NCBI GenBank assembly: GCA_000004985.1 | Contig: GG738850.1 | Length of the DNA stretch: 64,000 nucleotides | Strand: one strand, 5' to 3' | Source of the DNA: Naegleria gruberi | Taxonomy: Eukaryota | Made by a program: the position numbers and the translations under genes | The notes under the pieces: generated by a model | What the model was told of the DNA's origin: nothing | The model's database searches: none | Seen by the model: the letters and a program-made list of their open reading frames with translations, nothing else | Part shown: in pieces, positions 21,549 through 59,674 of the stretch | Layout of the letters: each line of letters begins with the position of its first letter | Numbering within the stretch: the first letter of the stretch is position 1

Positions 21549-24500
21549 TTAAATAACGAACAAAATACAACCCAAAACAAAAATTAACACTGCTTTCGTA
21601 ACATTGCAAGAGGTAGCTGCCAATGAAACTGTTGGTATGATAATCTTTGGTAATTCAACAGTAACTCTTTCAATTGAAGTTCCATCGGCTGCAAATGTGG
21701 AAATTGAAGCAACTGGTGTTGAGCTAGTTCCAGAATTAACCTTAACTTTCATTGTGATGGTGTAACTTGCTGGTGAGAGAGTTTGACCGAGAGTTGCATT
21801 CAATTTGTTGGAGGCATCAACATTCATTGAAGTAAATTGAATGACAATACCTTTTGAATCTGTTATAATGAAATTATCTGAAAGTGCACGTTTACTTTCA
21901 GATGTAAGTGTGAATGCTGCAGGAAGTGACATGACCAATGAACCTCCCATTGGAATTGGCTTTGTAATCACCATGGCTGTCTTGACACTCACCATTCCAC
22001 CAACAGGAACATAGGCAGTAGTACTTGTTTGTGGAGTAACAGGATTAATTGGATTGGTAGAATTATTGTTTGTAGAATTTGTGTTGGAGGTGTTATTGGC
22101 AATGGTTGAATTGTTGGTGGATGTACCATTGTTAACTACTGGATTAGTGGATGAATTAGTGGAATTGTTTCCATTATTGTTAATGACATTGTTGTTTGGA
22201 TTTGTGGAATTTGAATTGGTAGTATTGGAAGTGGATGTGTTGTTTCCATTCATTGAATTATTTCCACCAGAATCTGTTGTATTAGTTGTTGATGTATTAT
22301 TTGTTACAATAGAACTGTTACTATTTGTGGAGGAATTATCAACATTTGTACCATTACTAATAATTGAGTTATTTCCACTTGTTGTATTATCAACATTAGT
22401 ATTGTTACCATTGTTAACATTTGTATTATTACTGGCATTGGTATTATTGCTAGATGTAGTAGAATTGTCTACATTTGTGCTATTATTTCCATTGTTAACG
22501 TTAGTATTGTTATTGATGTTAGTGTTATTGCTGTTAGTAGTAGAATTATCAATATTTGTATTGTTATTATTATTAACATTAGTATTATTACTATTTGTGG
22601 AGGAATTATCCACATTAGTATTATTATTATTAGCATTGGTAGAATTATCAAAGTTAGTGTTATTATTACTACTACTTGTTGAATTATCAACATTAGTAGC
22701 ATTATTATTAAGACCTGGATCAGTATTATTATTCGAAGGAGAATCATTGACTGAAGATACAGTAAAAGTACCAGTGCTCTTAACAGTTAATATATAACTA
22801 CCACTGGATTGATCTTGTGTTGCAGTGCAGGTATCATCTGCAACATAATCACCAACAGAATCGTCCCATTTCAAACATTGATAAGTGGTTGTTGAAATTG
22901 TTCTCAATCCACGCAATTTTCTTGTAGAGCTACTGATTGAGGAATCAATTTGTAACTCGGCAATGCTTTCGGTATGATTCACATTCAATGCTTGATTCAA
23001 GTGTGAAATGACAAATTCAACAGCATTGGCCAATGCCTTGGAACAATTTGGTTTGAAAACATTAAGAGTAATATCAACTGAATCAGTAACATTGGACAAA
23101 GTTTGTAATAGATTGAACTTTTCACTCAATTTGAAACCATTTTTACCAGATATAGTTTCATTCAATCCATTTAAGAACGACTTGGTAACCTTTCTTCCGT
23201 AGGCCTTAACATCCTTATTAAGTAAAATAGTGGCTGGCATATCTGGAACCTTTTGATTTGAAGCAATATTGACCAATGAAGTATAAACTTGTTTAAGTTT
23301 TTCAGTTGGTTTCTCAGTTTTCAATTTTGAAGGTAAAATAGATCTGACACTTGAAGTAGTAAACAAAGTATCAGCTACTTGTTGAGTTTGTGTAAGAGTT
23401 TCATCAGATACTGGAATTGAACTATCCAGAGCTGTTGTTGTAGTTGAAATTAAAGTATCAGCAATTAAATTTGAAGTGTTTGATGACATCATGTCCATAT
23501 TTTCAGTTGCAATATCCAAAATAGTTGCTGTTGAAGCAACAAGAGATTCGGTTGGACTAGTAATAGATGCTTCTTGTTGAGTATTATTCAACATGGTGTT
23601 AATAACTGAATCAGCAACTTGAGCCAATTCTTGTTGAACCGTTTCACTGTCATTTGATTGAGAGTAATTAGCATTGGCAATGGATTGAATTAAAGCAGCA
23701 CCATCTGAAACTGGAATATTACTTTGATCAGCAATAGCATTTGCAGTTGCAACAGTTTCGTCCAAAGTTGCCTCGGTAACATTTACAGTTGTAATGGCAC
23801 TCGAAGAAGCACCCATTGCATCATAGACAGTTACTGATACTTCATTCACACCTACGATACCCAACTTTAATGAATAGAAACTAGTCTCAGAACGTGACGA
23901 AACAATGGTCCTTACTGAATTGGAATTTGGACCTCTTGTACTAAATTCATAAGTTAATGGAAGTTGCGCATCAGTCCAACCATTACCACATGAAACCTTA
24001 AAATCTGTCAATAGGGAAACACCAGAGCTTGGCTCAACGAGTAATTCACCAACTGTTGGTGGTGAGTTCACAGTGAAGAACACTTCAGCAGTACCTTCTT
24101 TATCGATAGTTGTGTTTCCAATAATAACAGTATCCTTAATGGTAATCTTCATTTCATTGGAGCTACCTGGAGTTAATAATTTTGATGGAATGATAATGTA
24201 TGCCTTTGTTACTTCCACACCAGTTAAATCAATCGATGAAGATTCCCATAAGAATGATTTGGAATCACTGAGTACAACTGGTTGAATTAACAATGCTCTC
24301 AAAACCAAATCCTTTGATGGATTGACAACTGATAAATCAACGCCGTCCATAGGCATAATTGACGAGGTAATAACAGTGTCCTTTGAAATTTCCAAAACGG
24401 TAACCTTAAGAGAATCAGTAGCAGTTCTGTTTTGCTTTCTATAAGTAACAGTGAAAAGATAGGAACCAGGATCCATTAATTGACTCATTTTCATGGTATT

Positions 24501-27500
24501 TGTAATATCGAGTGGGAATGAACCATTTGTACAAACGTCACCACTGTCCAAATCAAGACAGTCAATTGCAATGGATTGTACCTCATTGGTTTTTGATGGA
24601 TCTTGAGCAATAACTGAGAGTGAAACTGGATCTTCCATCGATTGAATTACATCTCTCAATGTAAATGCTACTTTCAATGCTGCAGAGGAAGCAGTTACTT
24701 TAAATGGCAAAGAAACATCTTGAACTCCGTCTTGTCTTGCAGTGAGCATGAAATAATATTCACCTTCCATTGGAAGAACAGTTCTTCCAGGACCAATAAT
24801 TAATCTTCCATCCTCAACAATGAAATTAGTAATGTTAGTAACACTGCTATAATCACTATTCATAGAGTAAATGAATTTAACACGACCTCTTCCCTTATTG
24901 CAAGCTCTATTGGAATAGGAAATGACTGGTGTAATGATGTTTAATAATCCCAAAGTATTAGAAATTGAAACTCCTTCCTTAATTGACAAATTAGGAATAG
25001 AATCTTCACTGACAACAAAGGAAATTGTTTGAGTTGAAGTAATTTCTGGAGCCAATGGACTACTGACAGTAACTTGAATAGAATAAGTTCCATTACTCAT
25101 ATTATTAGTATCCAAGATTAAATTTGGTTTGTTGAAAGTGGAAATCAAAGAGCTGAGGGTTAAAGAATCATCGGTGGTTGGTGCAGAAACAACTTGCCAT
25201 GCGAATTTCAATGGTCTTCTATCGAATGATTGAGAATTGGCAGCACTAATGAACAACTTATCGCATCCACGTGACACAACTGATTTTTCAACGTTGATTT
25301 GTGCTTCAGGTGATTGTGGTTTGAAGGATCCTTGCTTGATGGTTATGGAAATAGATTCAGATGATTGTGGATAAACGCTTAATGATAAATTTTGACCAAT
25401 TGAAATAGATGAACTATATCCAAGGATAATAGTTAATTTAGATTCACCATTCAACATACACATTGCTCCCTTTCCAATAAAATCAATTGAATCTGGTCTA
25501 ATTAAATCTTGACATGGAATAATTGACTTGATAGTGGAATAAACAGTACCATAGACTATATCAGCCTTTTCAGATAATTCAAAGTTATCAACAACGCTGA
25601 AATCACATTTGCTTCCATACCATCCTTGGGCACATTGTGAACAATTTGCACCAATTGAGTGACCTGAACATTTACAAGTACCATCATTCAAACAAATTCC
25701 TCTATTAGAACATGTCAATGCAGGAGAACATTGAATTTCACAATCAACACCAACAAATCCATTTGCACATGATTGACAGAAAGGTCCAGTAAATCTCTCT
25801 TCACATAAACATTTCAATTGTTGAGTACAATTACCACGATTATTACAAGTGTCTGAACTACAACGTGGAGTTTTACATTCTTCCCCATTGAAGGAAGGTA
25901 AACAGGTTGAACAATAAGTGGAATTATCATAATTACCATAGCAAACACATTGATCCTTAGCAATACATTTTCCTTTTTTGGAGCAGACATTAGAATCATA
26001 TCTTCCAACTCCATTACAAGTAAAAGTAGCACAATTTGGACCAGTATATCCATCAGTACATGCACATGTATTAGGTTGTGTACAAATGCCTCTTCCACCA
26101 CATACATTCTTATCATTAGCAGGCAATTGACCACAAATTGGAATTTTACAATCAACACCAGTATATCCATCCTTACAATTGGAACATGATTGGCCTTCAA
26201 AGTTACCAGTACATGTGCATTTGCCTTCCATTGAACATTTACCACGGAACGAACAACCACCTTGAGTTTCAGTTCTTCCATTACATGTTGGAATATCACA
26301 CATTTCACCTGAAAATCTTTCTTTACAGATACAATTGTCTGGTCCAATACATTTACCATTTCCAGAACACACTGATGGATCAGTGGATGCTTTTTGGAAA
26401 CAAACTAAGCTTTGACATCTATCTCCTGTATATCCTTGATTACAAATGCATGTATCTGTACTACCACATTTGCCACGACCTGAACATGCAAGTGGATTTT
26501 CTGAAGGTAAGCCAAAACATTTAATAGCTTGAGTGGAATTGGCTGAGAAACAATCATTGGTGGAATTCAGTGTTGAACAATAATCGGTAGCCATGTTAGA
26601 AGATAATCCCATTTCACTTGTTACAATATTCTTACAAGCATTGTTACACAATGGTTGAGATAAAACATTGGTTGAATTGATTGAACAAGATTTGAATGTT
26701 TTCAAACAGGATACTCTTAAAAGACCCTTTTTGCATGAATCTCCACAATTCTTGTATCCAACACTGTCAAGTAATTCAGAATTCTTCTTGTAAAGTGTTG
26801 TAATTTTTGTGGAAACTGACAAGGCCATTTTAGATTGAAAATCTGCTGGACTTGTTGAAATCACTTGACTCATTAAATCATCAGTGCTAATCATGTAATT
26901 AACATGATCAGAACATCCACTTAGTAAAGTCTTTGGAGGAATGATACATTGAGCAGCAGGTTTAAAATATTGACAATCTGTACCATAATAATTAGATGGA
27001 CAAATTCTTTGACAAGTTGTTGAATCATCAGACAATTGGAAACCTTCTGCACAATCAGTACATGGTCTATTGTTTCCCAATGTAGTATAACCCTTAGTAC
27101 AAGTACAATAAGGAGTATAGGCAGATGAATAAGAACATGTACCATTTCCACAACCTTGCTTTCCACAATTTGGAACCTTTGTAATACATATTCCATTAGC
27201 ATATATTAAATTATCAGAGCATTTCAAACAAAGTGGATACACCATTCCTTCGATAGCACATTTATCACAACTTGCACCACTATATTTGGTATTAGAGCAA
27301 GCTGAGCATGGAGCTGACATATTCACAGTCATGTAGCCAGTATTACAGACACATTGAGCAGTTGAGAGTGTAACTGCTTTACAAGCACCATTTCCACAAT
27401 TAGGTGTTGGACACACTGGTAATTTTACATATGGTCTATCTAATACATTTGGTTTAGGTGAATAATTACAAACAATCAAGGTAGCTCCATTCAATTCTGG

Positions 27501-28032
27501 CTTGTTGAACACTTTTGCACAGGTAGCTCTGGAACACCCGACTTTGGTGGAAGCTGCTGAGACAACTTGAATATAATGTTGGCAATCACCACTCTTTAAA
27601 CATAAGCTTCCTTAATTGTAAATCATAAACACTTACAGAACAATAATTATTTGTAAAGTCATATTTAGAAGATTCTAAAGTCCATTCATTCACAATATCC
27701 ACCACTGACATATTTCCCTTCATACTGACATGAATATTTACGCCCAAATTGAGAGAATTACTTGATGGTCCTGCAGCACATTTAGTAAGCCAAGAAGCTG
27801 CCCTAGATGCCAATTCATCACTCCATTCCAAGGCTGCTAACTTGTTAAGTGGAGTCGGAGCCACTGATAAACGTGCGGAATTGTGGGCATTCAAAATGGC
27901 TGTCTTTTCTGAAGAAGTTAATTCCGCAGCCCTTACTTGTTGTTGTTGATTCATCATCAACATGGATACAACCAAAAGCATCACCAACACAAGGCTAACT
28001 TTGTGATGATGGTGCGGATAAATGATGTTCAT
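21549..28032 (-). CDS. Giant (about 2120 aa) secreted/membrane protein: signal peptide + CAP (SCP/PR-1) domain + about 20 EGF-like Cys repeats + REJ/PKD-like module + N/S/T-rich linker + C-terminal hydrophobic tail; complement(join(21549..27593,27637..28032)), 43-nt intron 27594..27636
   Basis: CAP motifs spread over both exons (AILNAHNSARL, LEWSDELASRAASW, then after intron QHYIQVVSAASTKVGCS...LIVCNYSPKPN); GTAAGT...AAAG intron is phase 0; tracked 'start' at 27512 is GTG; C-terminus ...AVLIFVLGCILFVI (TM or GPI signal). Confidence 0.75.
22060..22760 (-). repeat. Coding low-complexity array: degenerate repeats of (N-N-[ST]-N/T-N-V-D-N-S-T) inside the giant CAP-EGF gene
   Basis: Direct repeats of gttaataatg / attattact-type units on the + strand; translate to NNNTNVDNSTT... 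on the minus strand. Confidence 0.6.
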
Positions 28033-28377
28033 TCTTTTTTTTTGCTGATTTGAAGATTAATATTTTTGGCGAATTTTCTTCCTTAAACACTTGGTTGAAG
28101 AACAGCTGTAAAAAGTTCTGTTTCAAGCATTGAATATTGTACTGCTCAATTTTCATGTGGCGATTGTTGAGAATGTGTGGCTAGGGAATTGAGGTTGGTG
28201 GTTGGTGTGGAACTTGGGAATTAAGGCAATACGGAGAGTCGTTATTGAGAGATAATCTGTCAGGATTATTAAATTACAGTTCGTTGAGTGAAAATCATGC
28301 ATTTCCACAATTATGTGGAAAACTTTTAATTAAATAAAACCCGATACAATTCCTCCAGTTTGACAAAAATCAAAAAA

Positions 28378-28950
28378 ATGTCTCAACAATCAAACACTTC
28401 ATTCACACCACTTACAACTAGTCAATTGACCTCCACTCAACGATTGATTTCACCAACACTCCATCTAGGTGTACACTACCAAGCCGACATTATCAATGGC
28501 AAGATTTATTCTCTCACTCAAATTCCTGGAGATTATTTGTGGGGAAGAGAGGGAAGATATCCAGTGAGTTTCTTCCTGTTGGAAGCTGTTGTGGTGAATA
28601 ATATGGTCGGAAAGGATTTTAAAACTGCCTTGATAAAGTTGAAGGAAATTATATTGAGTAGCATTGCTAGACGATCGTTTAATGATGATGATGAGGCAGA
28701 TCAACAAGTTACTTCTCGATTGGAGGAAGAACTTGTGCAAGATTTGGATGAATATTTGAGTTTGAGTTATCCAAGTGATTATATTCAAATTGCAATTGTT
28801 GAAGAGGTTGCATTGAGATACATGGATATTCAAACTCATAGACCACTTGCCTTTTTTGAAGGACCTAGAGCAGATGATAAGACCATTCAACAACAAAGAG
28901 AAGCACTCTCAATGCTCAGTGCCGTTGAAGCTCGCTTAAAAAACAAATAA
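28378..28950 (+). CDS. Hypothetical 190-aa protein, divergent from the giant CAP-EGF gene with about 330 bp between the two start codons
   Basis: ORF with ATG at 28378; no recognisable domain. Confidence 0.4.
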   Translation: MSQQSNTSFTPLTTSQLTSTQRLISPTLHLGVHYQADIINGKIYSLTQIPGDYLWGREGRYPVSFFLLEAVVVNNMVGKDFKTALIKLKEIILSSIARRSFNDDDEADQQVTSRLEEELVQDLDEYLSLSYPSDYIQIAIVEEVALRYMDIQTHRPLAFFEGPRADDKTIQQQREALSMLSAVEARLKNK

Positions 28951-29080
28951 ACTTTGTCTTACTGAACTCTATCTCCCATAAAACTCCTCAAAAACTCCTC
29001 TTATTCGGAGCGTTTCAAGAATCTTCACAATAAAAAAAATTACAAAAAAATAAAAAATTTAAAAAAACCCTGAAAAAAAA

Positions 29081-30667: not shown

Positions 30668-30724
30668 CTTATTTCTTAATTTATCTATTTATCTAAATAA
30701 TAATAACAACTTGTTATTGAACAT

Positions 30725-30946: not shown

Positions 30947-31020
30947 TTTTTATCTTGTTTTACAGTGTTACCACTCATCTCAATAAAAAGGAAATCCTGA
31001 TTACAATGATAATATTATTT

Positions 31021-45140: not shown

Positions 45141-46126
45141 TTAGAACTTTCCTCCAAATTTGCCACCTCCTCTAGAAAATCCACCTCTGCCACCTCTATC
45201 GCCACCGAATCCACCACGGTCGCCACCGAAACCTCCACGGCCACCACCACGACCACCACCGAAACCACCACGGTCACCACCGAATCCACCACGACCACCT
45301 CTATCTCCACCAAATCCACCACGACCACCACCACGGCCACCTCTATCACCGAAACCACCTCTACCACCACCTCTGGATCCACCACGACCACCGAAACCTC
45401 CACGGCCTCCTCTTCCACCACGACCACCACCACCGGCCTTCTTTTCCTTTGGCATGAGTCTGTATGTGAATAAGGTCAGAAAAAAATTGAACGATTTACA
45501 AAAATACTTACGGATTCTTTGGTTCTGGAGGAATGAAACGATCCAATGGTAACAATCTCTTTGTATTCAGATAAGCTTCAGTACCCTTAGCAACGTTTCC
45601 TCTAAAGTTAGCATCCTTTTCCATAGAGAAATACTGTTGTTGTTGTGATTAGTTAAAACGATCAAATTTGAAACATACCACTTGGTTGATTGGTCCCAAA
45701 ACTTCCTTCAATTTACCGATTAAGGTCTTATCTTTAGTATATACATTGGAGTTACACAATGGAACGAGCTTTTCACCATCGAGAACAGACTTGAACAAGA
45801 ATTCTGTTCCAGCAGGCTTTTCAAATTGACCAGCAACTGTATTTCCACAACCAATAACAATTTACACATTTTGAAACATTTCACAAAATAATTTCATCAA
45901 CATCAACAATAAATTTGAACACATTTTCAAAGATTTGATACTAACACTTAATTTCTTCTGGTGGGAATTCTTCACCTCCTCTTCCACCGGAGCCACCAAA
46001 TCCACCTCTACCACCACCACGACCGCCTCCACGGCCACCACCTCTACCACCAAATCCACCTCTACCACCTCTATCACCACCAAATCCACCACGACCACCT
46101 CCACGAGAACCTCCTCTGAATGACAT
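45141..46126 (-). CDS. GAR1: H/ACA snoRNP subunit GAR1, 4 exons: complement(join(45141..45449,45502..45632,45679..45836,about 45947..46126))
   Basis: MSFRGGSRGGGRGGFGG... N-terminal GAR domain; core IGKLKEVLGPINQV|YFSMEKDANF..RLLPLDRFIPPEPK (cf. IGKVDEIFGQL..FYFSVK..KLLPLQRFLPRPP); C-terminal GAR domain; three 45-96-nt introns with GTRWGT donors. Confidence 0.85.
45160..45430 (-). repeat. GGN/CGN triplet-rich simple repeat encoding the C-terminal GAR (Gly-Arg) domain; a second block at 45960..46110 encodes the N-terminal GAR domain
   Basis: Repeated ccacc-acgacc-accgaa units on + strand; creates spurious Pro-rich ORF 45160..45552(+). Confidence 0.7.
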
Positions 46127-48140: not shown

Positions 48141-48256
48141 TTTTTATTATTAATTGAGGTTCTTTGAGATGAAAAGTGTACAATTTTGGCGCCAAAATTT
48201 TGGAATGAAGCGTTTTACTAAGGCCAAGTAAGGAATCGATTCGTTCTTAATGTAAT

Positions 48257-48678: not shown

Positions 48679-51600
48679 TTAAACACTATAACTTAACATT
48701 TCCACTTGAGCGTTAGGATCCCCAACTACTGGAACCTCATAGACAGGACCCTTTCTTCTCTTACAACAATCCCACTTCAATTTTAATAAGACAACAATAA
48801 AAACAAAGACTGTACATAATAAACAAGTGAAACCAAGAATTGTTCCAAGAATTATACCCAAATATCGATCTTCTGCTATTGGTGTGGAAACCTTTACAAC
48901 CTTTTCAAGAATATTTTCAATAATCATAGTGCTTGTTGTAGAGTTGCATTTACAAGTTGCGGTAGAGTTGGAGCTCACCACAACAACACAGGATGGATCA
49001 ACTCCAACAGTGAAATTCTTAAATGTTCTACATAATAATTCTGAAGATCTATACACTTTTGTAATTACATTTTTGTTTGATTGAGTGGATTTAGTTGTGG
49101 AAATCAAAGAGTTGCTTGGATAATTCTTGACGTTAGATATTGTCATATTATAAGTGATTGGAGTCAATACATCTGCAGTGGATTCCAATAATTCAAAGAA
49201 TAAGACATTGCTTCTAAGAAACATGGTAGAAGATATTGATGTTTCAATCTTAGATGTGTTCACAGTGATGGTGCTATCACTTAACACCACCTTAGCGGCA
49301 ACAGTGTCAGAAATACCAAATATATCGTTGGAGGAAATTGAAATAAAGGAAATAGACTTTCTGTTAGATTTTTCGCTCAAGTAGAGAGGCATTTCTGGAG
49401 GCAACAAAACAACAGCACCTTCAAGTGGTGATGTTAATCTTGATTCAAAACCTGCTCTAAAGAGCTTGTTGGATGAAATTGAAGCAAAGACTGTCTTCAA
49501 TTGTAAATCTCTTTCACCAATGTAAATACCTCTCAACATTAAATTAGAAACACGTTTCAGCATTGTGTAGAGAGAACTGAGTTGGTCTGATGCTTGTAAC
49601 TGATTGTATGTAATATAATTGTAGATAGAATTCAAGATATTGGTCAATAACTTGTCAACTCCAAAAGGAACTCTAAGCTCCTTATTATATTCGCAGAATT
49701 TAAGTAAGGTGTTAACAATATCATAGGCCTTTTCCATACTATGTCCATCCAATTCATCATACTTTTCAATCAATGAATCCAAACCGTATGCTTGAAGAGT
49801 CAAGTAGGTTTCTGTAATAATTTCATATGGATTTCTAGCGTCGAATGTTTGAATAAATTCATCCATCAAGGCAACTCTGATTTCCTTATAGGCAGCAAAA
49901 TCTTCCTCTGTAACACTGCAATCTGCCTTTTCAAATCCAGATGCACATGAACATCTATTGGTTTCAGTAATAAGAGTTCCTCCATTTTGACAAACGAGCT
50001 TCACATCTCTTCTTCTTGCACCACTGGTAATCTTTGTTAGCATACCATCAGCGACTCTTGAAATTGTTGCAGAGTTGAAAACCATCTTGGCTGTATCACC
50101 ATCTTTGAGTGAATTTTGAATTGTACTGTAAGAGGCAACCTTCTTTTTAACTTCCACGACACTCTTTACAGCTGCAAGATCAATGGTAATGTCCTTTTTG
50201 ATTTCAGTGTAGGCACCAGTGGATTTATCTGTTATTCTAATGTATGTGGTGACGATCTTGTTAGAAAGTGGTGTGTATGAACATGGCAGCTTGGTTGAAT
50301 AGACTTCTCCGTTTTGATAAAGTGGAATATTAGCACCTGATTTGTCATCAATAAAACCATAGACCACTTGAAGGGTCTTTTGAGCGTTTTGACAATTGGT
50401 ACATGCGAATGAGAAACTAGTTTCTAAGGCAATACCTGATGAAGGAGAAACAGTGCATGGACAAGCTTGAGGTGGAGCAGCAATTTGGAAAGAGTATGAA
50501 TAGACAGCACTCAATCCATTTCTAATATCAGTTACCTTCAAGGACAAGACATAGGTAGCTCCATCTTCCAACGTTGCAGGATCAATAACAACAGAGTTGG
50601 ATAGTGTTGGGCTGGAAGTCATTTTAGAGATAACTGCTTCACCATTTGAAAGTATCTTTGAATTCAAAGTCCATTCTCTGCTAATATACTGATCAATTCC
50701 AACAGATTCTCCATTGGCAGTGACTGCAAGTTGCAAGTTAACAATATCTTGTTTCAAAATGACAGTCTTAGTTGGGACAACTGAAATAAGTGTAACGGTT
50801 GGAGGAACTTTCTTACTTTCAGGGAAAACAAAATCAAGAGTAGTTTGAACTGATCTTATTCCCTTAACAACCGAGAGGGTTAATTTAAGAGTTGGCATCG
50901 AGTTGTAAACTTTGAGGTCAGCTGAGGAAATTAAAGGTCTAACAGTTCTATCATTTGAATACGAGATAAGGGCAGAATCAATAGTTGTTCCACACCCAAC
51001 ATTATTAGTTGCATCGAAGCAAGACCATGTCCATGTTTCAGCCTCAGATGTGACATCAGGATCAACAAGATTGACAACAATAGTACCCATATCGGAAGAT
51101 ACTTCATCACTATATAAAATTAAGCTCAAAGGGCTTGGTCTAACAGTAATCTTAATGGTGTCGGATGCAGTCGAAAGAGGATTCACCACTGAAGTTACAG
51201 TGATTTTGAATTCATAGACGGCTTCAACCAGACCAGAAAAGTGGGTGACTGCCAAGTTGTTAAACTTGTCTGTTTCAAAAGTTGTAACTGGACCTGATAA
51301 TTGTTCCCAGACAATGTTTAATTGTTGGTTTGGATAGAAGCAACTTGGAAGCTCCAAATGCTTCTTAATGACAACAGGAGATTCATACTTGATAATAGTT
51401 CTGTCATTGAAACCAATAATGTATAGCACTGGAAGTGGAACGGCTGCCTTTGAAACACTCCAAATACTCATAGTACTGACCTTTCCAGATATTGAGCTTT
51501 CTACTTGAAGACCGAACTTGTACTCACCAGGATATTGCATTGCAATGTAATCAAGAGACAAAACTGAGGTGTTAGGCATAGAGACAGAAAGGAAATTACT

Positions 51601-54600
51601 TGGAGAAGAAACAATTGTCCAATAATATTTCAATGGCTTTCTATCTCCAGAATAAGAAGCAGAGGCATCCAGACTAAAGTTATCGCAAGTACCAATATTA
51701 TTCAGACCAGAAAAGACGACAACTGGTATTGCTGGATTATCGGCATTCAAAACATATACATCTTGTAAATCAGTACCACTGGCATCAAATACCAGTCTAT
51801 TCATTCCAACAACTGCTCCTGGCATTAAGGAATAATCATCTCCAAAGAGAATTGTAAATTCACCACTACCTCTATTTGTCCACATGCATACAGGACCAGT
51901 ACCAAACAAGGATAATTGGGAGCTTGAAATTAATCTTGAACAATCAACTTTTGATTGAGTATAAGAAGCAGGACCAATAACTTTGAAAACAATGCCATTA
52001 AACATGTCCAAGAATTTGGCAGGACCGAATATTTGAGTTGAACATTGTGAACCATAATAACCAGTTTGACACTTGTTACAATTGGATCCTTCCCAATACC
52101 CTTCAGTTGGACTAGCATAACAAGAGCATGTTCCATTATTGGTACAATCTCCATGGTTAGAACATGTTGTTGATTTTTCACAAAATGTTCCACAATCAGA
52201 ATTAGGATTGTAATAGTTGGTCTTGCAAACGGAACAGAACTTTCCGTCCCAATTACCATTGCAAACACATTGGAGAGCTGAATTACAATAGCCATGTTGG
52301 TTACAAGTAGTAGCAGGATCACACTTGAGCTTCTTACATCCTGTTAATTCAGTTTCATAGTCAAGTCTACAAACATCACAATAGGTTCCTTGCCAATAAC
52401 CATCTTGATTATTTTGATTGCAAGAACATGTGTTGTAATCTGTACAATTACCCTGTCCACTGCAGACACCAGATTGATCGAACCTAATATTATTACAAGT
52501 GTAATATTGACAATAATCACCAGAGTATCCTGTACTGCATTGGCATCCAGTGGAACTACAAATACCCTTTCCATTACATACTCTTGAGTCTGTTGAAACA
52601 ACAAATGTATTCTCCTTACTCAAACATTGAAGATATTGACATTGATTTCCAGTGACTTTAGAAAGAGCAGTTGGAGCTGGGCAATTACATACATTAGGTG
52701 ATGAACAGACACCTTTTCCACTACAAACATTGGAATCATTTGCAGGCTTTCCAAAACAAACTGGAATTTCACATGTGGCTCCAATGTATCCATTATTGCA
52801 AGAGCAAGTATTTGGAGCTGTGCAGGTTCCATTTGAGCTTGAACAAACTTTTGAATTATTAGCTAAAATTCCAAAACAGATTGGAATATCACAAGTAAAG
52901 CCAGTATATCCTGAAATGCATTGGCAAGAATCTGGAGCTGAACAAATCCCTTTTCCTGAACAAACTGAACTTGAATTTGACAGAATGTCATAACATTTTT
53001 TGTGTTCACAGGCCTCTCCTGCATAACCTTGTTTGCAGGTGCAATTGTTTTGACCTACACAATAGCCATTACCTGAACAAGCTTGAGGGTTCAAGCTTGC
53101 GATTCCGTAGCAAGTAAAAGTACCTGGAATGATAAACTCACAATTATCTCCATAAAATCCTGCGAGACAACTGCAATTATTGACAGATACACATGCACCT
53201 CTGGATGAGCAAACAGAAGAAGAATTGAACATGGTTCCATTGCAGGTATGATGTTGGCAGTCATTACCAGTGTAGTTCTTGTTGCAAGAACAAACACCAG
53301 ATAGACAAATACCATTAAAGGAACAAACTGATGGATCTTCGGCTGTTTTACCATTGCATTTCACATTTTGGCAATCATTTCCGTATGTTGAGGAATTACA
53401 ATTACAAACTCCTGAAATGCATTGACCTGCATAAGAACAAACAGATGGATCTTCAGCAGTCTTTCCATTACATTTGATAAATTGACAGTCATTACCATAG
53501 TTGGAGGAAGAGCAGGTACAAGCTCCTTGATAACAAGTGCCATTGGAGGAACAAACACTTGGATCGACTGCTGTTTTTCCATTACATTTCATGAGTTGAC
53601 AGTCAGATCCGTAAGTGGTGGCGTTACAGCTACATGTTCCAGAAATACATTGACCTGCATAAGAACAAACAGAGGGATCTTCAGCAGTTTTACCATTACA
53701 TTTGATAAATTGGCAATCATTACCGTAGTTAGTTGAAGAACAGGTACAAACACCTGAGGAGCATGTTCCATTCGATGAACATACTGTTGCGTTTTCTGCT
53801 GTTTTTCCATTACATTTCAAGAATTGACAATCGTTACCATATGTAGTTGAATTACAATTACACACTCCAGAAATACATTGACCAGATGAGGAGCAAACAG
53901 TGGAATCATTAATCATCTTTCCATTGCACTTCAACATTTCACATTGGTTACCATAAACAGTTGAGTTTACACAGGAACAAACGTCCTGAGCAATGCAAGA
54001 ACCCATTCCACTGCAAACACTTTGACTACCGGCAGAAATTCCAAAACATGTAAAGAGACTTCCTGAACAATCATTTCCAAAGAATCCTGTATTGCAAGTG
54101 CAATTATCAGTTGAAATGCAAGAACCATGGCCAGAGCAAACTAGAGTTTCATTGCTCATGACACCACTACATTTCCAAACTTCACAATCAGATCCATAAA
54201 AACCAGAAGAACAATTACAAGTGCCAGTTAATGCATTACAATCACCACGTGAATGACAAACTGAAGAATCATTGGCAAACTTTCCATTACACTTGGAAAA
54301 CTCGCATTCATTACCGTAGAAATCAGATCTGCAAGCACAAGTGTCCAATCTGATGCAATCACCTCTGGAATTACAAACTGAAGAATCATTGGCAAGCTTT
54401 CCAAAGCAAGATGGCTTATCACAGAGAGGACCTGTCCATCCTGGCTCACATTGACACTTATCAGTGCCAACACAAGAGCCATGTACACAACCTGGATTAC
54501 AAGACAAACTACAATTTGCAGTTATGATACCATCTTCACATTGACACAAATTATTGCCAGCACAAATACCATGACCACTGCAATAATTCAAAGCGCTGCA

Positions 54601-55723
54601 ATCAAATTGATCACCAACATAGAGAGACGCAGTTGTAAAAGCAGCATTTTCACAAGCATACTTGTAGGCAAGTTTTCTTCTTGGATGGGAGCAAACATTT
54701 GTTCCCTTTCCACCCATTCCATGATAGGCACCTGTTTGACTTCCACCAATACCAATGTAGGCATCAAGTTTTCCACTCTCAACACAAGAGGCATTTGAAG
54801 AGGTTACAACACCAAATCTCACTTTCAAATAATTACTATTTCCCATGTTGAATCCAATTAATTTGTTGGCACAATATTTGGCAGATGTGTAATCTGGAGC
54901 TAGAGAATAGAAATTTCTAGCAGTTCTCAAAGATCCTGGAACTACTCTGGATTGATAAGTTTCATCAGAGAACGCTTCTAACAATGACTTTTTGTTAACT
55001 GTAAAAACAGCAGTATTGGTCTTGTTAGACTCGACAATGAATCCGTCATGATCCAAAACAAAAGCTGTCTTAACTGTTGTCATTTTCAAAGAGTGAGCAA
55101 CATGTTTAGTAAAAGCCAAAGTCTTCAAATTAGTATATTGATATCCAATACTTCCAACTGTGGCGTTATTGGTCCAATATTGACTAGAATAGGAGAAGGT
55201 TGCATCAGATCCATCCTTCAAATCCAAAGCAAGAGCCCAAGCACCTATATTTTAACACAAAGGAGCCTTGTTAAATATGAAGAAGGAATAATAACATACC
55301 CTTTGATGAAACATCAAACAAGCACTTGGTTTGATAAGTAACCTTATTGTTATTTCCATCCAAAAGGAACAAGTAGAACAAGTTTCCAGAGATACTTGAC
55401 ACTGACTCTCCCTTACTCAAATAATAATCTCTGATGGCACCACAACTTACAGCAGCGGTATCAGCAGAAGATCCATTAGAGACTTTCAATTTGAGTGTAG
55501 TAAAAGAATCAATCATCCACTGACCCAAATTATCGGAAGGAGAAGAAGCAGCAATTATAGAACAGTTAAATAAAACAATTAATGCAATAATGGCCATAAT
55601 CATGGAGGCGCTTAATAAATTGGAGAATGATTTCTTCAACCTATTGAAACCACCATCATCATCACAGCGTTGAACTTTGTTGCTCAAATGAGGACACGTA
55701 AAATGTCCCCTCATTGAATTCAT
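48679..55723 (-). CDS. Giant (about 2300 aa) type I membrane protein: signal/anchor, N-terminal Gly-rich globular domain, about 35-40 EGF-like Cys repeats, REJ/PKD-like module, Ig/FN-like spacer, TM and 37-aa cytoplasmic tail; complement(join(48679..55234,55291..55723))
   Basis: Exon 1 has hydrophobic MIMAIIALIVLFNCSIIAASS and ends ...DVSSKG|GTATGT; exon 2 begins AWALALDLKDGSDATF (tracked ORF 'M' is TTG); repeats of CSG.G.C...C.C..G..G..C; C-terminal TM LGIILGTILGFTCLLCTVFVFIVVLL then KLKWDCCKRRK. Confidence 0.75.
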
Positions 55724-56101
55724 TTTTTTTTACACTTGAATCTTTGCAATTTGCGCGGGAGGAAAGGATGCAAATGTTTTTGGTCTTAATTTCCCAAAGG
55801 AAACATACTTGCTGAATATAAAGCATGGAGACGAAGAAAGATTCTGAAAAAGTTAAGGCTGTCTTGTTTCTTGCTTCGTAATAATCGTTGAAAAAATAAC
55901 AACTTTTTTCCTTAATTATTTTGTGTACAATTAAGAACTGAAGGTGATTAAGGTAAGCTTTACTTTTATAATGGACCCTCCTCATCCCGCCAAAATACTC
56001 TCTAATGAAAAGTCATCATATGCGAGTCTTAATTAAAAAAAATACCTCTGAGAGAGTACACCCACCACAATCAATAATATATTTTCATACCTCGCGAAAT
56101 T

Positions 56102-59100
56102 ATGCAAATATCATCACGGAATGTGTTTGTTGTGGTATTGTTGGTAATTGGTTTATTGTCCAATAATGTTTATTCCTTTAATGCTTCAGTGTGCCCCACT
56201 TTCAATAGCCAAGCGTGTAATGGTGCCGCCTTATTGAATCCGTGTGCTTCTGGTGGTGAAGAAACAAATTATTGTGACTGTTTTGGATTTGGGAGTGGCG
56301 GGTTTTCAGCCTTTTATGGAGGTGTTGCATGTGAAACCTTTCAATGCTATAAAGTAGACATGCATATTGGAATTGGTCTGTACGACCAATATATTTGTTC
56401 AAATAATGGAGATTGCATTGGACCCAATAGTTGTCAGTGTAATCAAGGTTATACTGGTTACAAATGTCAATACTCTATTGCAGATATTTCTTGTTTTAAC
56501 TTACCCGCAAATAGTTCTACTGTCTGTAGTGGAAAAGGAAAGTGTACACATCCGAATGAATGCCTTTGTAATAAGGGATATGAAGGTTTAAATTGTGAAA
56601 AGTTTAGATGTTATGGTCATTTGAACTCGGATTCGAATGCTTGTAGTGGGAAAGGAAAGTGTATAGATTGGAATGTCTGCGATTGTGACAACGGAAATTC
56701 TGGAAAAAATTGTGAACTAGTGTCCACTGTTGGTAGCTCCATTCAAAGAGTATGTTTTGGAATACCTAACACTAACAATTCGGTCTGCAATAACCGTGGT
56801 GTTTGTGTTGGACCTGATTCCTGTGTATGTAATCCAGGATATTTTGGATCTGAATGTGAACATTCCTTCTGTTTTTCTATTCCTCAAAATGACTCATCTG
56901 TTTGTAATGGCAGAGGCTTTTGTAATGAAAAAGATTCATGTAATTGCCTTTCTCAACTCTCAAATGTTCTGATTTCAGGAAGTGAATGTGAATATTTACA
57001 GTGCAAGGGAACTTTTGGCCAATACTATTTCTCTACAGATAGTACCAATGTATGCTCTGGAAATGGAATTTGCACCCTAAACGGTTGTAACTGTACTGAA
57101 GGGTACTCTGGAGAATTTTGTCAAGATTATTTCTGTGGTGGTGTCCCAAATTACAGTCCATCGTCATGCTCTGGACATGGTAACTGTATTGCTCCAGATG
57201 ATTGTTCTTGCTATACTAATTCAACTCATGGTTTTTGGATAGGATCTGATTGCAGTGTTTGTGATTCATCTCACCATGGATCTGACTGTTTGTCCAGTGT
57301 CAACTGTGACAGATATGAAACTTGTAATGGCCAGGGAAATTGCTCTTCAAATCATACATGCCTTTGTGATGATGGATTCGAGGGAGAATTCTGTGATGAA
57401 TGCTCAAATGATAGATATGGTTGGGATTGTAAGCAGTTTTGTTCAAGAATTTCAAGCTGCTATGGTCACGGTGAGTGTTCCAGAGATGGCCAGGTATGTG
57501 AATGTGATTATTCCCAAAGCACTGGTTTTTGGAAAGGAAATAATTGCTCCTCTTGTGCTGATGGTTTTTTTGGAGACGATTGTTTGACAAAGGTTGGATC
57601 AACCTTTGAGTTTAATTCCCTAGGAAATGAGATTTACTTTGATTTGAATGGTCCTTCAACCTATCTTGGTGGTGTTGTTGATTGTTCAACCCTCTTATCC
57701 TCTTCCTCTTACTCATCTATTGGAAGTTCATTAGCTAAATGTATTTTCAAAACTCCTTTAATTCCATCAAGAATTTCTATAGAGCTTGCAAGCACATCAA
57801 CTATTAAGCCAGGCGACTCCTTGGAGGTTAATTTGAAAGTTTTTGATGCACAACATCTACCAAGATCTCTCTCCACACTCTCATGTTCAGCATCTAATAT
57901 ATCTTCTCCTATTGCTGAAATTGTTTACCACAACACCTTAGTGAGATATTCTGAAAATTTGGTTCTTACAGGAAGAAATAGATTAGGTATTCCTCGTGAA
58001 CGCGTATTGTTCTATGAGTGGACTTTAATTTCAAGTACCTCTTCTTTTAATTCTCTTTCTAGTGTTGTGTCGTCAGGATCAGGTCTAGGAAAATCAGTTC
58101 TCAATATTTCTAACACGGATTTACCAGATAACAATGCATTTGCAATTCAACTTAAAGTGAAACACCCAGACTTTAACTTGTGGAGTAATTATGTAATCGT
58201 TAACTTTACAAAAGAAGATCAACCAATAGTTCAATCACCGTACAAAAAATATGAAGTGTATATATATCCTCCTTTAGACCCCTATTATGTGACAGAGTTT
58301 GTTTTTCCAATCACTGTTCCGTATCAAGTTTTGGAAGATGGTGTTCCAGTGGATACTTCTTCATTTACTGCAATTAGTTGGACATTTGATCCAGATATTC
58401 AAGCAAGTGGGCAGAGTATTTTTACAGTGGATACAACAACAAATGGTGTACTTTCTTTTGATGCAACCATTAGTGAAATGGAAAATACTATTGTCACAGT
58501 TAAATGTGACGTTATAGAAAACAATGTTGTATTAACATCCAGTTCTTTCAAAATCAAATCTGTTGCAGAGTATAAACCTTCTCTCAAAACAAATGAGACA
58601 GATTATGGGGTTTTCTTTAATATTGGATCTTTGAAGGGAATGCCATTACAGCAGAGCTATTGGGAATGTCACGCACCAACACAGCACCAGGGAAAATGTG
58701 AACCTGAAATCGAGGCTTTCTTCAAAGATGCAACTAACAAGAAAAGCGTCTTTATTCCTAATGAATATTTATACAAGTACAAAGTACTTTATTATGCTCG
58801 TGTTTCAATGGTTGTTAATGGGGCTCATTATAAGGGACAAGCGGATGCTTTTGGTAAAAAGGGTTTAGAAATCTTAAAGATTGGAAATGAAGATGTAAAG
58901 CATTATGTCTATTTGAGTAGAACGCAACAAACTAACTACATTTTGTACTATGACAACACAAGACAATCAATGACAAGCCCTCCTTCATATTCAATGTTTG
59001 ATGAGCTTGGAAATAACATTACAGATATTCTTGTTTTGGATGCAACAAACAAACGTATTATAATCAATCCTACCGCAATACCATCTCAATCAACTTTATT

Positions 59101-59674
59101 AACCTTGTCCCTTACTGACACTTATGGAAGCATGATTTATAAGAAAAACCTTCATGCATTTGTTGACATGCTCCCTAAATCAAATTGTACTGTTAAAATT
59201 GCTGAACATCCGGTTACAGTTAGTGTTTTTAATGGAATACTCTACTTTTACAATATTACAGTAGCATGTGTAACTTCTTCAAAATTGCCAACAGTTAAAG
59301 TGTATTTGAAGAACCAAAATACCGAACTATTCGTATGTGATTTTGATCCACTATTGCTTCCAAGTCAATCTTGCTACATTCTACTTCCAGAATTGATTGG
59401 ACCAACAGATGTGTTTGCCAATGTTACTCATGCAACCCAGGAATTGGTTGCCCTATTACCTGTTGCAGAAGTAAGTGAATTGATTCCTATTGGAAGTCTA
59501 AGAGAAAGACAAACAACTCCCTCAGCAGATATTGATTCTCTTCAACAAATGTTCTACCAATATTTTGCCAATCCAAGAGATGTTGAAAACACATCTATGT
59601 TACTTCAAACTCAAATCAAAAAACTGCTCTACTTACACTACCCAGAAAAGGAGCTTTCGTATCCAAATCTCTAA
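56102..59674 (+). CDS. Secreted 1190-aa paralog of the giant EGF/REJ-like family (signal peptide, about 14 EGF-like repeats, REJ/PKD-like module, no TM in this ORF)
   Basis: ATG at 56102, signal MQISSRNVFVVVLLVIGLLSNNVYS; EGF-type Cys spacing; shared post-EGF motif GPSTYLGGVVDCSTLLSSS...VLFYEWTLISSTSS aligning with GPASYTQSKVDCSRLISSS...PLKYYWTIVSSPS in 48679..55723. Confidence 0.75.
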   Translation: MQISSRNVFVVVLLVIGLLSNNVYSFNASVCPTFNSQACNGAALLNPCASGGEETNYCDCFGFGSGGFSAFYGGVACETFQCYKVDMHIGIGLYDQYICSNNGDCIGPNSCQCNQGYTGYKCQYSIADISCFNLPANSSTVCSGKGKCTHPNECLCNKGYEGLNCEKFRCYGHLNSDSNACSGKGKCIDWNVCDCDNGNSGKNCELVSTVGSSIQRVCFGIPNTNNSVCNNRGVCVGPDSCVCNPGYFGSECEHSFCFSIPQNDSSVCNGRGFCNEKDSCNCLSQLSNVLISGSECEYLQCKGTFGQYYFSTDSTNVCSGNGICTLNGCNCTEGYSGEFCQDYFCGGVPNYSPSSCSGHGNCIAPDDCSCYTNSTHGFWIGSDCSVCDSSHHGSDCLSSVNCDRYETCNGQGNCSSNHTCLCDDGFEGEFCDECSNDRYGWDCKQFCSRISSCYGHGECSRDGQVCECDYSQSTGFWKGNNCSSCADGFFGDDCLTKVGSTFEFNSLGNEIYFDLNGPSTYLGGVVDCSTLLSSSSYSSIGSSLAKCIFKTPLIPSRISIELASTSTIKPGDSLEVNLKVFDAQHLPRSLSTLSCSASNISSPIAEIVYHNTLVRYSENLVLTGRNRLGIPRERVLFYEWTLISSTSSFNSLSSVVSSGSGLGKSVLNISNTDLPDNNAFAIQLKVKHPDFNLWSNYVIVNFTKEDQPIVQSPYKKYEVYIYPPLDPYYVTEFVFPITVPYQVLEDGVPVDTSSFTAISWTFDPDIQASGQSIFTVDTTTNGVLSFDATISEMENTIVTVKCDVIENNVVLTSSSFKIKSVAEYKPSLKTNETDYGVFFNIGSLKGMPLQQSYWECHAPTQHQGKCEPEIEAFFKDATNKKSVFIPNEYLYKYKVLYYARVSMVVNGAHYKGQADAFGKKGLEILKIGNEDVKHYVYLSRTQQTNYILYYDNTRQSMTSPPSYSMFDELGNNITDILVLDATNKRIIINPTAIPSQSTLLTLSLTDTYGSMIYKKNLHAFVDMLPKSNCTVKIAEHPVTVSVFNGILYFYNITVACVTSSKLPTVKVYLKNQNTELFVCDFDPLLLPSQSCYILLPELIGPTDVFANVTHATQELVALLPVAEVSELIPIGSLRERQTTPSADIDSLQQMFYQYFANPRDVENTSMLLQTQIKKLLYLHYPEKELSYPNL

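What the first reader, a model, noticed from the sequence alone, without database searches (positions are those of the whole stretch)
21549..59674. Local paralogous family of giant EGF-repeat / REJ-like extracellular proteins (three members within 38 kb)
Three genes (21549..28032 minus; 48679..55723 minus; 56102..59674 plus) share one architecture.
- N-terminal region.
- Then 14 to 40 tenascin-type EGF-like Cys repeats (C-S-G-x-G-x-C ... C-x-C-x2-G-x2-G-x2-C).
- Then a conserved about 150-aa module with the motif [RK]-x-L-x-[FY]-x-W-x-[LIV]-[VI]-S-[SA], resembling REJ/PKD-type repeats.
- Then Ig/FN-like Ser/Thr-rich stalks.
- Ends differ: TM plus tail in 48679..55723, a hydrophobic C-terminus (TM or GPI signal) in 21549..28032, and a secreted form in 56102..59674.

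The N-terminal heads differ: a CAP/PR-1 domain, a Gly-rich globular domain, or a Cys-knot-like head. That pattern suggests a modular receptor or adhesion family diversifying by head-domain swapping, with candidate roles in cell-cell recognition or adhesion.
Basis: partly seen in the sequence, partly recalled or inferred. Interest (0 to 1): 0.75.

Follow-up and report, generated by a model that had tools for sequence, protein, structure and literature searches.

The report
Naegleria EGF–REJ–GAIN-like surface protein genes
Three giant genes in this Naegleria gruberi window belong to a large, unstudied, genome-wide family of surface or secreted glycoproteins that share the extracellular core of polycystin-1 and the sea-urchin egg-jelly receptor, a real but not unprecedented architecture.

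Summary
The window is Naegleria gruberi, not a social amoeba.

**Shared architecture**
- All three genes are intact.
- Each encodes a signal peptide, teneurin/tenascin-type EGF arrays and a shared post-EGF module of about 215 aa. A profile built without g3 finds g3 at p 2e-21.

**Differences between the genes**
- g1 and g2 continue into a Pfam REJ domain (E about 1e-28).
- Both then carry a GAIN-like juxtamembrane domain. It is homologous to the GPS-bearing region of protist relatives (hhalign 98.7% and 97.2%). The catalytic His-Leu-Thr is missing.
- g2 ends in one TM helix and a 34-aa tail.
- g1 adds an Asn/Ser/Thr-rich stalk and a GPI-like hydrophobic end.
- g3 is a truncated secreted form with no REJ core, GAIN or TM.

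- EGF counts are about 10 to 22, not 14 to 40.
- g3 has no separate head.
- The g2 head is unassigned.
- Only the g1 CAP head is confirmed.
- The family is not local. At least 22 further N. gruberi members lie on other scaffolds, and 3207 cluster representatives match the family profile worldwide.

Function (adhesion or recognition) is inferred. I rate this a new member of a known kind, of moderate interest.

The parts
21549..28032 (-). g1 gene: exon 1 28032..27637, 43-nt intron 27636..27594, exon 2 27593..21549; 2146 aa
   Evidence: Reading of the sequence and the spliced model give a single stop at the end. The splice restores the CAP consensus across the junction.
27462..27894 (-). g1 CAP/PR-1 head (aa 47-176, spans the intron)
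   Evidence: Pfam PF00188 CAP, E 2.5e-14, 54.6 bits against a cut-off of 21.1.
25602..27422 (-). g1 Cys-rich region (aa 190-796): cEGF and teneurin-type EGF units plus an unassigned Cys-rich insert at aa 330-500
   Evidence: Pfam EGF_Teneurin 6.6e-12, EGF_2 4e-8, cEGF 2.7e-7. Regex counts.
24960..25601 (-). g1 shared post-EGF module with motif RPLKFAWQVVSA (aa 797-1010)
   Evidence: Alignment. Weak REJ N-terminal match, E 1e-4. Family HMM covers g1 803-1760 at 664 bits.
23787..24959 (-). g1 REJ core (aa 1011-1401)
   Evidence: Pfam PF02010 REJ, E 3.3e-28, 98.9 bits.
22740..23786 (-). g1 GAIN-like domain (aa 1402-1750) with a degenerate GPS: CLKWDD..DDTC..ILTVKSTGTFTV. The second Cys pair and the His-Leu-Thr are absent.
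   Evidence: hhalign of the g1-type set against the canonical-GPS set: 97.2%, E 3e-11, 268 columns. Shuffled and reversed controls give E 0.2-1. With the GPS columns removed the result is 93.1%, E 3e-7.
22020..22739 (-). g1 Asn/Ser/Thr-rich low-complexity stalk (aa 1751-1990)
   Evidence: Translation. Tandem repeats of 39 to 81 bp at 22386..22710.
21552..22019 (-). g1 C-terminal unassigned domain and hydrophobic C-terminus (..SCNVTKAVLIFVLGCILFVI), a GPI-signal-like end
   Evidence: Translation. No Pfam match below E 0.03. GPI signal inferred from small residues, a spacer and a terminal hydrophobic run; no predictor was available.
48679..55723 (-). g2 gene: exon 1 55723..55300, 55-nt intron 55299..55245, exon 2 55244..48679; 2329 aa
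54598..55543 (-). g2 head (aa 61-357), unassigned globular region after a signal or anchor segment at aa 36-60
   Evidence: No Pfam hit at E<=10. No PDB sequence hit. AF2 pLDDT 30. No similar head in 64 family members.
52042..54597 (-). g2 EGF array, about 20-22 units of 38-39 aa. It includes a 114/228-bp tandem repeat at 53290..53925.
   Evidence: Pfam EGF_2 3.7e-63, EGF_TEN 1.8e-47. Unit list. TRF.
51394..52041 (-). g2 shared post-EGF module with motif KPLKYYWTIVSS (aa 1210-1425)
   Evidence: Weak K319L-like PKD and PKD_4 matches, E 7e-3.
50002..51393 (-). g2 PKD-like repeat plus REJ core (aa 1426-1889)
   Evidence: Pfam REJ 6.4e-29, 101 bits; K319L-like_PKD 1.9e-9.
48883..50001 (-). g2 single EGF followed by a GAIN-like domain (aa 1890-2262). 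The GPS-like motif CRTFKN..SC..CKCNSTTSTMII is at 48919..49032.
   Evidence: hhalign of the g2-type set against the canonical-GPS set: 98.7%, E 3e-16, 310 columns, with the four Cys in register. Controls. Pfam GPS reaches only E 1.4. AF2 shows five helices and then a low-confidence beta region.
48682..48861 (-). g2 transmembrane helix (aa 2270-2295) and 34-aa cytoplasmic tail
   Evidence: Hydrophobic segment scan, AF2 helix 430-470 of the model, coordinates.
56102..59674 (+). g3 gene, single exon, 1190 aa: signal peptide aa 1-25, EGF array aa 26-494 (56177..57583), shared module plus one PKD-like repeat aa 495-820 (57584..58561), unique C-terminal region aa 821-1190 (58562..59671). No TM.
   Evidence: 100% identical to NCBI N. 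gruberi 'predicted protein' P0001. Pfam finds EGF families only. Module homology. Nothing matches the C-terminal 370 aa.
55724..56101 (.). 378-bp intergenic region between the divergently transcribed g2 and g3 (possible shared promoter)
   Evidence: Sequence. The promoter function is inferred only.

Best explanation
g1, g2 and g3 are three members of a large Naegleria (Heterolobosea) family of secreted or membrane-anchored glycoproteins. The family is built on an old eukaryotic ectodomain scaffold.

**Scaffold, N- to C-terminus**
- a signal peptide;
- an optional variable head;
- a rod of teneurin/tenascin-type EGF units;
- a run of PKD/REJ-like Ig-fold repeats (the REJ domain);
- one EGF;
- a GAIN-like domain placed directly before a single transmembrane helix.

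**The three genes**
- g2 is the full type-I form with a 34-aa tail.
- g1 carries a CAP head. It inserts a mucin-like Asn/Ser/Thr stalk and a small domain between the GAIN-like domain and a GPI-like hydrophobic end.
- g3 keeps only the EGF rod and the first two PKD-like repeats, then a unique C-terminal region. It is secreted.

**Shown:** domain content, homology and family size.

**Inferred**
- The proteins hold a binding head far from the membrane on a stiff EGF/Ig stalk. They would serve adhesion or recognition of substrate, prey or other cells.
- The GPS position lacks His-Leu-Thr (g2 has Asn-Ser-Thr-Thr; g1 has lost the second Cys pair). They are therefore probably not autoproteolysed and do not use a tethered-agonist mechanism.
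- With a short tail that has no recognisable domain, any signalling would need partner proteins.
For: **Identity and integrity**
- Organism.
- The exon-2 reading frames run 1987 (g1) and 2182 (g2) codons in DNA of 34% G+C.

**Domains**
- Pfam EGF, REJ and CAP hits are well above their cut-offs.
- The shared module is significant in all three genes.
- hhalign of the 350-aa juxtamembrane regions against relatives carrying a canonical CxCxHLT motif gives 98.7% (E 3e-16) and 97.2% (E 3e-11), with Cys in register.
- Shuffled and reversed controls give E 0.2-1. Homology persists after the GPS columns are removed.
- Those relatives have Pfam GPS hits (5e-10 and 5e-8) and the same REJ-EGF-[about 300 aa]-GPS-TM order.

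**Family size and spread**
- The exhaustive profile search finds 3207 cluster representatives at E<=1e-3.
- 25 of the 27 named proteins among the 30 looked up are N. gruberi 'predicted proteins' on many scaffolds, giving at least 22 distinct members outside the window; the other two are N. lovaniensis.
- Most relatives are EGF plus REJ plus one C-terminal TM.
- Canonical-GPS relatives occur in Stygiella, Mantamonas and Lagenidium.
- GAIN is already known to be ancient, in Dictyostelium and Tetrahymena (PMC3321182).
Against: - The GAIN fold could not be verified structurally. AF2 gave pLDDT 48 overall and about 25-35 in the beta part.
- Pfam GPS is not significant on g2 (E 1.4) and is absent on g1.
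- The PDB profile search gave only E 0.3-0.4 for adhesion-GPCR GPS regions.
- g3 lacks the REJ core and GAIN, so it shares only part of the architecture.
- Nothing here bears on expression, localisation, ligand, cleavage or GPI anchoring. Function is by analogy only.
Confidence: 0.75

Rival explanations
1. They are polycystin-1-like signalling receptors. The REJ plus GAIN ectodomain senses a ligand or mechanical force and gates a partner TRPP-type channel, for example in the flagellate stage, as PKD1/PKD2 and suREJ/suPC2 do in animals.
For: REJ is above threshold in g1 and g2. The GAIN-like domain is homologous to GPS-bearing relatives. Some distant relatives combine REJ and GPS with several TM helices.
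Against: g2 has a single TM helix and a 34-aa tail. It has no PLAT domain and no channel-like TM block. g1 and g3 have no TM helix. The GPS His-Leu-Thr is missing. No partner channel was looked for or found.
Confidence: 0.12
2. They are mainly structural extracellular-matrix, glycocalyx or cyst-wall components, not receptors. The EGF and Ig-like repeats would build a coat.
For: g3 is secreted with no anchor. All three are rich in N-glycosylation sequons: 66, 37 and 19. g1 has a mucin-like stalk. The EGF arrays contain fairly recent unit duplications, which are typical of repeat-length variation.
Against: Most family members keep a juxtamembrane GAIN-like domain and a single TM helix. Diverse N-terminal heads suit binding functions better than a bulk matrix.
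Confidence: 0.1
3. The three-gene cluster is a recently expanded local paralog set, diversifying in place by swapping head domains.
For: Three members lie within 38 kb, and g2 and g3 are adjacent and divergent. A fourth member, P0002, is on the same scaffold. Other adjacent pairs exist in the genome: EFC38199/EFC38200 and EFC41041/EFC41042.
Against: Identities between the three are only 27-35%. g1 is closer to N. lovaniensis P0021 (39%) and to N. gruberi P0030 on another scaffold. g2 is closer to P0002 (42%). g3 is as close to P0054 as to g2. g1 and g2 belong to different GPS-variant subfamilies. Any local duplication is therefore old.
Confidence: 0.03

Closest known systems
Sea-urchin sperm receptor for egg jelly, suREJ1 (from my own knowledge of Moy et al. 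1996; not retrieved here)
   Same: A single-pass type-I protein in which N-terminal binding modules and EGF precede a REJ module and one C-terminal TM helix with a short tail. This is the closest overall match to g2.
   Different: suREJ1 has one EGF and two C-type lectin modules, not about 20 EGFs and an unassigned head. Sequence relatedness is limited to the REJ profile. No functional data exist for Naegleria.
Polycystin-1 family (PKD1, PKD1L1-3, PKDREJ)
   Same: The REJ domain is followed by a GAIN/GPS domain immediately before the first TM helix. PKD-type Ig repeats lie upstream.
   Different: Polycystin-1 proteins have 11 TM helices, a PLAT domain and a channel-like C-terminal block, and they cleave at HL^T. 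g2 has one TM helix and lacks His-Leu-Thr. g1 and g3 have no TM helix.
Adhesion GPCRs (GAIN domain; Arac et al. 2012, PMC3321182)
   Same: A juxtamembrane GAIN-like domain of about 320-350 aa, with a helical part, then a beta part, and a four-Cys GPS-like segment in g2.
   Different: There is no 7TM domain. The GPS catalytic triad is absent. Sequence matches to solved adhesion-GPCR GAIN domains are not significant (E 0.3-0.4).
Protist EGF-REJ-GPS-TM proteins (Stygiella incarcerata P0064, Mantamonas plastica P0094, Lagenidium giganteum 'GPS domain-containing protein' P0092, and metagenomic P0046, P0048 and P0062)
   Same: The same order of EGF array, PKD/REJ, EGF, GAIN and TM. They are true homologues by profile search.
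   Different: They keep the canonical CxCxHLT motif. The sampled Naegleria members have replaced His (for example CRCSKLTNVF or CKCNSTT) or lost the Cys pair.
Teneurin/tenascin-type EGF arrays and KIAA0319-like PKD repeats
   Same: The EGF units match Pfam EGF_Teneurin and EGF_TEN. The motif-bearing repeat weakly matches K319L-like PKD.
   Different: No other teneurin, tenascin or KIAA0319 domains (YD shell, FN3, fibrinogen globe, MANSC) were detected.
CAP superfamily (PR-1/CRISP/antigen 5), g1 head only
   Same: A Pfam CAP domain covering the full profile, positions 1-117.
   Different: Here it is the N-terminal module of a 2146-aa EGF-REJ protein, not a small secreted protein.

Membership tests
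REJ domain proteins (Pfam PF02010) | Match to the REJ profile above the gathering score (25 bits) | tested here: met
   g1 98.9 bits, E 3.3e-28. g2 101.3 bits, E 6.4e-29.
REJ domain proteins (Pfam PF02010) | The same feature, for g3 | tested here: not met
   No REJ hit on g3 at E<=1 on the post-EGF 704 aa, or at E<=10 on its parts. Only the first two PKD-like repeats match the family HMM.
GAIN/GPS domain | Pfam GPS (PF01825) match above 22.5 bits | tested here: not met
   g2 segment: 10 bits, E 1.4, in the expected register. g1: no hit.
GAIN/GPS domain | Homology of the whole ~320-aa juxtamembrane region to regions that carry a verified GPS | tested here: met
   hhalign 98.7% (E 3e-16) for the g2 type and 97.2% (E 3e-11) for the g1 type. 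Controls give E 0.2-1. Homology holds without the GPS columns. Targets have Pfam GPS at 5e-10 and 5e-8.
GAIN/GPS domain | Cleavage motif His-Leu-Ser/Thr after the CxC pair | tested here: not met
   g2 reads CKC-N-S-T-T. g1 reads L-T-V-K-S-T-G-T with no CxC. No sampled N. gruberi paralog has CxCxH[LMIV][ST].
GAIN/GPS domain | GAIN fold: six-helix subdomain A plus beta-sandwich subdomain B | tested here: inconclusive
Polycystin-1 / PKD1-like channels | Eleven TM helices with a PLAT domain and a channel-like C-terminal TM block | tested here: not met
   One hydrophobic helix in g2 and none internal in g1 or g3. No PLAT or PKD_channel Pfam hit.
Adhesion GPCRs | 7TM (secretin-like) domain after the GAIN domain | tested here: not met
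   Single TM helix. No 7tm_2 hit.
Teneurin/tenascin-type EGF repeats | Match to EGF_2, EGF_Teneurin or EGF_TEN profiles | tested here: met
   g1 EGF_Teneurin 6.6e-12. g2 EGF_2 3.7e-63. g3 EGF_2 5.7e-19.
CAP superfamily (g1 head) | Match to PF00188 above 21.1 bits | tested here: met
   54.6 bits, E 2.5e-14, profile positions 1-117 of 117.
GPI-anchored proteins (g1) | C-terminal omega-site, spacer and hydrophobic signal; release by PI-PLC | not testable with these tools
   The sequence ends ..AATSCNVTK-AVLIFVLGCILFVI, which is compatible. No predictor or experiment was available.

The most novel reading that the evidence does not exclude
The Naegleria proteins would be a diversified recognition system descended from a very early eukaryotic EGF-REJ-GAIN receptor. 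A non-cleaving GAIN domain would serve as a fixed juxtamembrane platform. Interchangeable heads (CAP, an unassigned possibly lectin-like globule, many lineage-specific domains) would give specificity for prey, substrate or mating partners. The divergently transcribed g2/g3 pair would be a co-regulated membrane receptor and soluble decoy or ligand.
Probability: 0.1. Interest if true: 0.7.

Novelty: new member of a known kind. Interest (0 to 1): 0.42.

Why it matters
- **Age of the ectodomain core.** The ectodomain core shared by polycystin-1 and the egg-jelly receptors (PKD/REJ repeats, then GAIN, then a TM helix), here preceded by an EGF array, is present and strongly expanded in a free-living heterolobosean. 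Canonical-GPS relatives occur in a jakobid, Mantamonas and an oomycete. This supports a very old, pre-metazoan origin of the architecture.
- **A natural test set.** The family offers GAIN-like domains that have lost the cleavage residues.
- **Relevance to Naegleria biology.** The family is a plausible but untested source of surface adhesion or recognition molecules. That includes relatives of the pathogen N. fowleri.
- **Annotation.** g1 and g2 did not appear in either protein collection searched, so these giant genes may be missing from the public gene set.

Tried and rejected
g3 is 100% identical to an N. gruberi protein.
- **Word-indexed homolog searches:** three runs gave almost nothing, 1, 2 and 2 hits. 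The third did not even recover rows of its own query alignment. The exhaustive HMMER search was needed.
- **The look-up of encoding contigs for g3:** not on record.
- **AF2 of the g2 head:**
  - The exon-2 part alone gave pLDDT 30.5, so no fold search was run on it.
- **g2 head against databases:** nothing from Pfam at E<=10 or from PDB sequences. A by-eye resemblance to the fibrinogen-related/intelectin pattern remains an untested lead.
- **Pfam GPS on short segments:** not significant.
- **PDB profile search with the Naegleria GAIN-like alignment:** dominated by the EGF at its start. Adhesion-GPCR hits reached only E 0.3-0.4.
- **g3 C-terminal 370 aa:** no match to the family HMM or to Pfam.
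- **Literature:** no paper links Naegleria with REJ or GAIN domains. The polycystin and EGF searches gave nothing relevant.
- **Rejected readings:** PKD1-channel and adhesion-GPCR membership, a 'Cys-knot head' in g3, and a purely local family.


Full report
**1. What is there**

The window has 31-38% G+C. It comes from Naegleria gruberi: the 1190-aa product of 56102..59674(+) is 100% identical to an NCBI 'predicted protein [Naegleria gruberi]' on a 707,703-bp scaffold.

- g1 is 28032..27637 plus 27593..21549 on the minus strand, 2146 aa. A 43-nt GTAAGT..AG intron interrupts it, and removing it restores the CAP-domain consensus.
- g2 is 55723..55300 plus 55244..48679 on the minus strand, 2329 aa, with a 55-nt intron.
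- g3 is a single exon.

Reading frames of 1987 and 2182 codons (exon 2 of g1 and g2) in such AT-rich DNA cannot be chance. g2 and g3 are divergently oriented with 378 bp between their start codons. About 20 kb of unrelated genes separate g1 from them: S28 peptidase, an NPP-type phosphodiesterase and others.

**2. Domain content**

Pfam finds teneurin/tenascin-type EGF repeats in all three: EGF_2, EGF_Teneurin and EGF_TEN. The unit is 38-39 aa with six Cys. A conservative pattern count gives 20 units in g2, 10 in g3 and 7 in g1, plus other Cys-rich units in g1. g2 contains a 114/228-bp tandem repeat of EGF units at 53290..53925 with 76% matches. This shows fairly recent unit duplication.

The g1 head is a CAP/PR-1 domain (PF00188, E 2.5e-14).

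The g2 head (aa 61-357) matches nothing:
- no Pfam hit at E<=10;
- no PDB sequence hit;
- AF2 of its exon-2 part gave pLDDT 30.

By eye it resembles the fibrinogen-related/intelectin pattern, but that is only a lead. g3 has no separate head. After the signal peptide comes a six-Cys EGF-like unit.

**3. The shared post-EGF module**

The motif occurs at g1 925, g2 1344 and g3 634. The surrounding module of about 215 aa aligns in all three and in paralog P0002.
- An HMM built from g1, g2 and P0002 only finds g3 at 62 bits, p 2e-21.
- A 145-sequence family HMM matches g3 502-820, g1 803-1760 and g2 1210-2209.
- On its own the module hits the start of REJ weakly in g1 (E 1e-4). In g2 it hits K319L-like PKD and PKD_4 weakly (E 7e-3).

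The motif is therefore the signature strand of a PKD/REJ-like Ig repeat lying upstream of the REJ core. The REJ core itself (PF02010) is far above threshold in g1 (98.9 bits) and g2 (101 bits). It is absent from g3. The last 370 aa of g3 match nothing.

**4.

After REJ, g2 has one EGF, about 300 aa, the segment CRTFKN..SC..CKCNSTTSTMII, and then the TM helix. g1 has CLKWDD..DDTC..ILTVKSTGTFTV. Pfam GPS is not significant on either (E 1.4 and none).

The exhaustive profile search recovered relatives with a canonical CxCxHLT motif just before their first TM helix.
- Two of them have Pfam GPS hits, at 5e-10 and 5e-8.
- They show the same REJ-EGF-[about 300 aa]-GPS-TM order.

Profile-profile comparison of the 350-aa juxtamembrane regions against 26 canonical sequences gave these results:

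| Query set | Sequences | Probability | E-value | Columns |
|---|---|---|---|---|
| g2-type | 17 | 98.7% | 3e-16 | 310, Cys in register |
| g1-type | 12 | 97.2% | 3e-11 | 268 |

- Column-shuffled and reversed controls score E 0.2-1.
- Homology persists after the last 75 columns are removed: 98.0% (E 1.6e-13) and 93.1% (E 3e-7).

The region is therefore homologous to GAIN/GPS regions over its whole length.

The fold could not be confirmed.
- AF2 with four sequences gave five helices and then an unreliable beta part (pLDDT 48).
- A PDB profile search gave only E 0.3-0.4 for ADGRL3 and ADGRF1.

None of the sampled Naegleria members keeps His-Leu-Thr. Autoproteolysis is therefore unlikely.

**5. 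Ends**
- g2 has a TM helix at aa 2270-2295 and a 34-aa tail.
- g1 continues from the GAIN-like domain into a 240-aa Asn/Ser/Thr-rich stalk with 39-81-bp repeats. An unassigned domain of about 140 aa follows, then a terminal hydrophobic run compatible with a GPI signal. That last point is inferred.
- g3 has no hydrophobic segment beyond its signal peptide.

**6. Family size and distribution**

The profile of g2, P0002, the Willaertia protein P0003 and g1 found 3207 cluster representatives at E<=1e-3, 792 at <=1e-10 and 86 at <=1e-30.

Of the 30 proteins looked up by name:
- 27 carried a taxon name, and 25 of those are N. gruberi 'predicted proteins'. With the two extra cluster members found, this gives at least 22 distinct members outside the window.
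- They lie on many different scaffolds and range from 1071 to 4968 aa. They include other adjacent pairs.
- The rest are from N. lovaniensis, the jakobid Stygiella, Mantamonas, the oomycete Lagenidium and metagenomes.

Most relatives are EGF plus REJ plus one C-terminal TM helix. Heads are very diverse, and sampled paralog heads have no Pfam match.

The three window genes are not each other's nearest relatives. The cluster is part of a dispersed old family, with at most an ancient local duplication for g2 and g3.

**7. Interpretation**

What is shown is the architecture and the homology. What is inferred is the role: surface or secreted adhesion or recognition proteins that present a variable head on an EGF/Ig stalk above a non-cleaving GAIN-like platform.

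- Membership of the polycystin-1 channel family and of adhesion GPCRs fails on the TM topology.
- The closest overall analogue is the single-pass sea-urchin receptor suREJ1. That comparison is from my own knowledge, not from a paper retrieved here.
- GAIN domains were already known to predate animals (PMC3321182).
- No paper in the searched library links Naegleria with REJ or GAIN domains.

**8. Verdict**

All the domain types are known, and automated annotation already flags REJ in paralogs. It is a new member of a known kind, of moderate evolutionary interest.

Noticed in passing
window 21549..28032 and 48679..55723: Neither g1 nor g2 was returned by the word-indexed protein searches or by the exhaustive representative search. 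Both were rows of the query profile, and g3 and many paralogs are present. These two giant genes may be missing or modelled differently in the public N. gruberi protein set.
   Followed up: partly
window 4910..7786 and 7873..8895 (-): A large gene with CEMIP beta-helix (E 6e-40), CEMIP domain X and CHRD domains. This is a CEMIP/TMEM2-like protein in an amoeboflagellate.
   Followed up: no
window 59685..61094 and 61101..63077 (-): A sodium:neurotransmitter symporter (SNF) family gene is split into two adjacent ORFs only 6 nt apart. The cause could be a short intron, a frameshift or an in-frame stop.
   Followed up: no
window 45178..46104: Dense 21-54-bp tandem repeats of CCACCACGACCACC type. 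On the minus strand they would encode Gly/Arg/Phe-rich (RGG/FGG-like) repeats.
   Followed up: no
window 53290..53925 and 22386..22710: g2 carries a 114/228-bp tandem repeat of EGF units (76% matches). The Asn-rich stalk of g1 carries 39-81-bp repeats. Both suggest repeat-number evolution inside these genes.
   Followed up: partly
window 26090..26600 approx. (g1 aa 330-500): A Cys-rich insert of about 170 aa lies between EGF blocks in g1. Its spacing differs from EGF and it has no Pfam match at E<=10.
   Followed up: partly
window 13161..16283 (+): A 1040-aa ORF has no Pfam family at E<=0.001.
   Followed up: no
window 11596..12978 (+) and 9832..11274 (+): A microbial-type poly(ADP-ribose) glycohydrolase catalytic domain (E 9e-17) lies next to a ferrochelatase gene.
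   Followed up: no
P0032 (Logan assembly, 2530 aa): A distant relative combines 16 EGFs, REJ, a canonical CxCxHLT motif and several TM helices with a RhoGAP domain at aa 2021-2135. The receptor is fused directly to a Rho regulator.
   Followed up: no
N. gruberi paralogs P0011-P0016, P0022, P0025: Their GPS position reads C-x-C-x-[KRQ]-[LF]-T-N-V-F. His is replaced while Leu-Thr is kept. This is a family-wide substitution, not random decay.
   Followed up: partly
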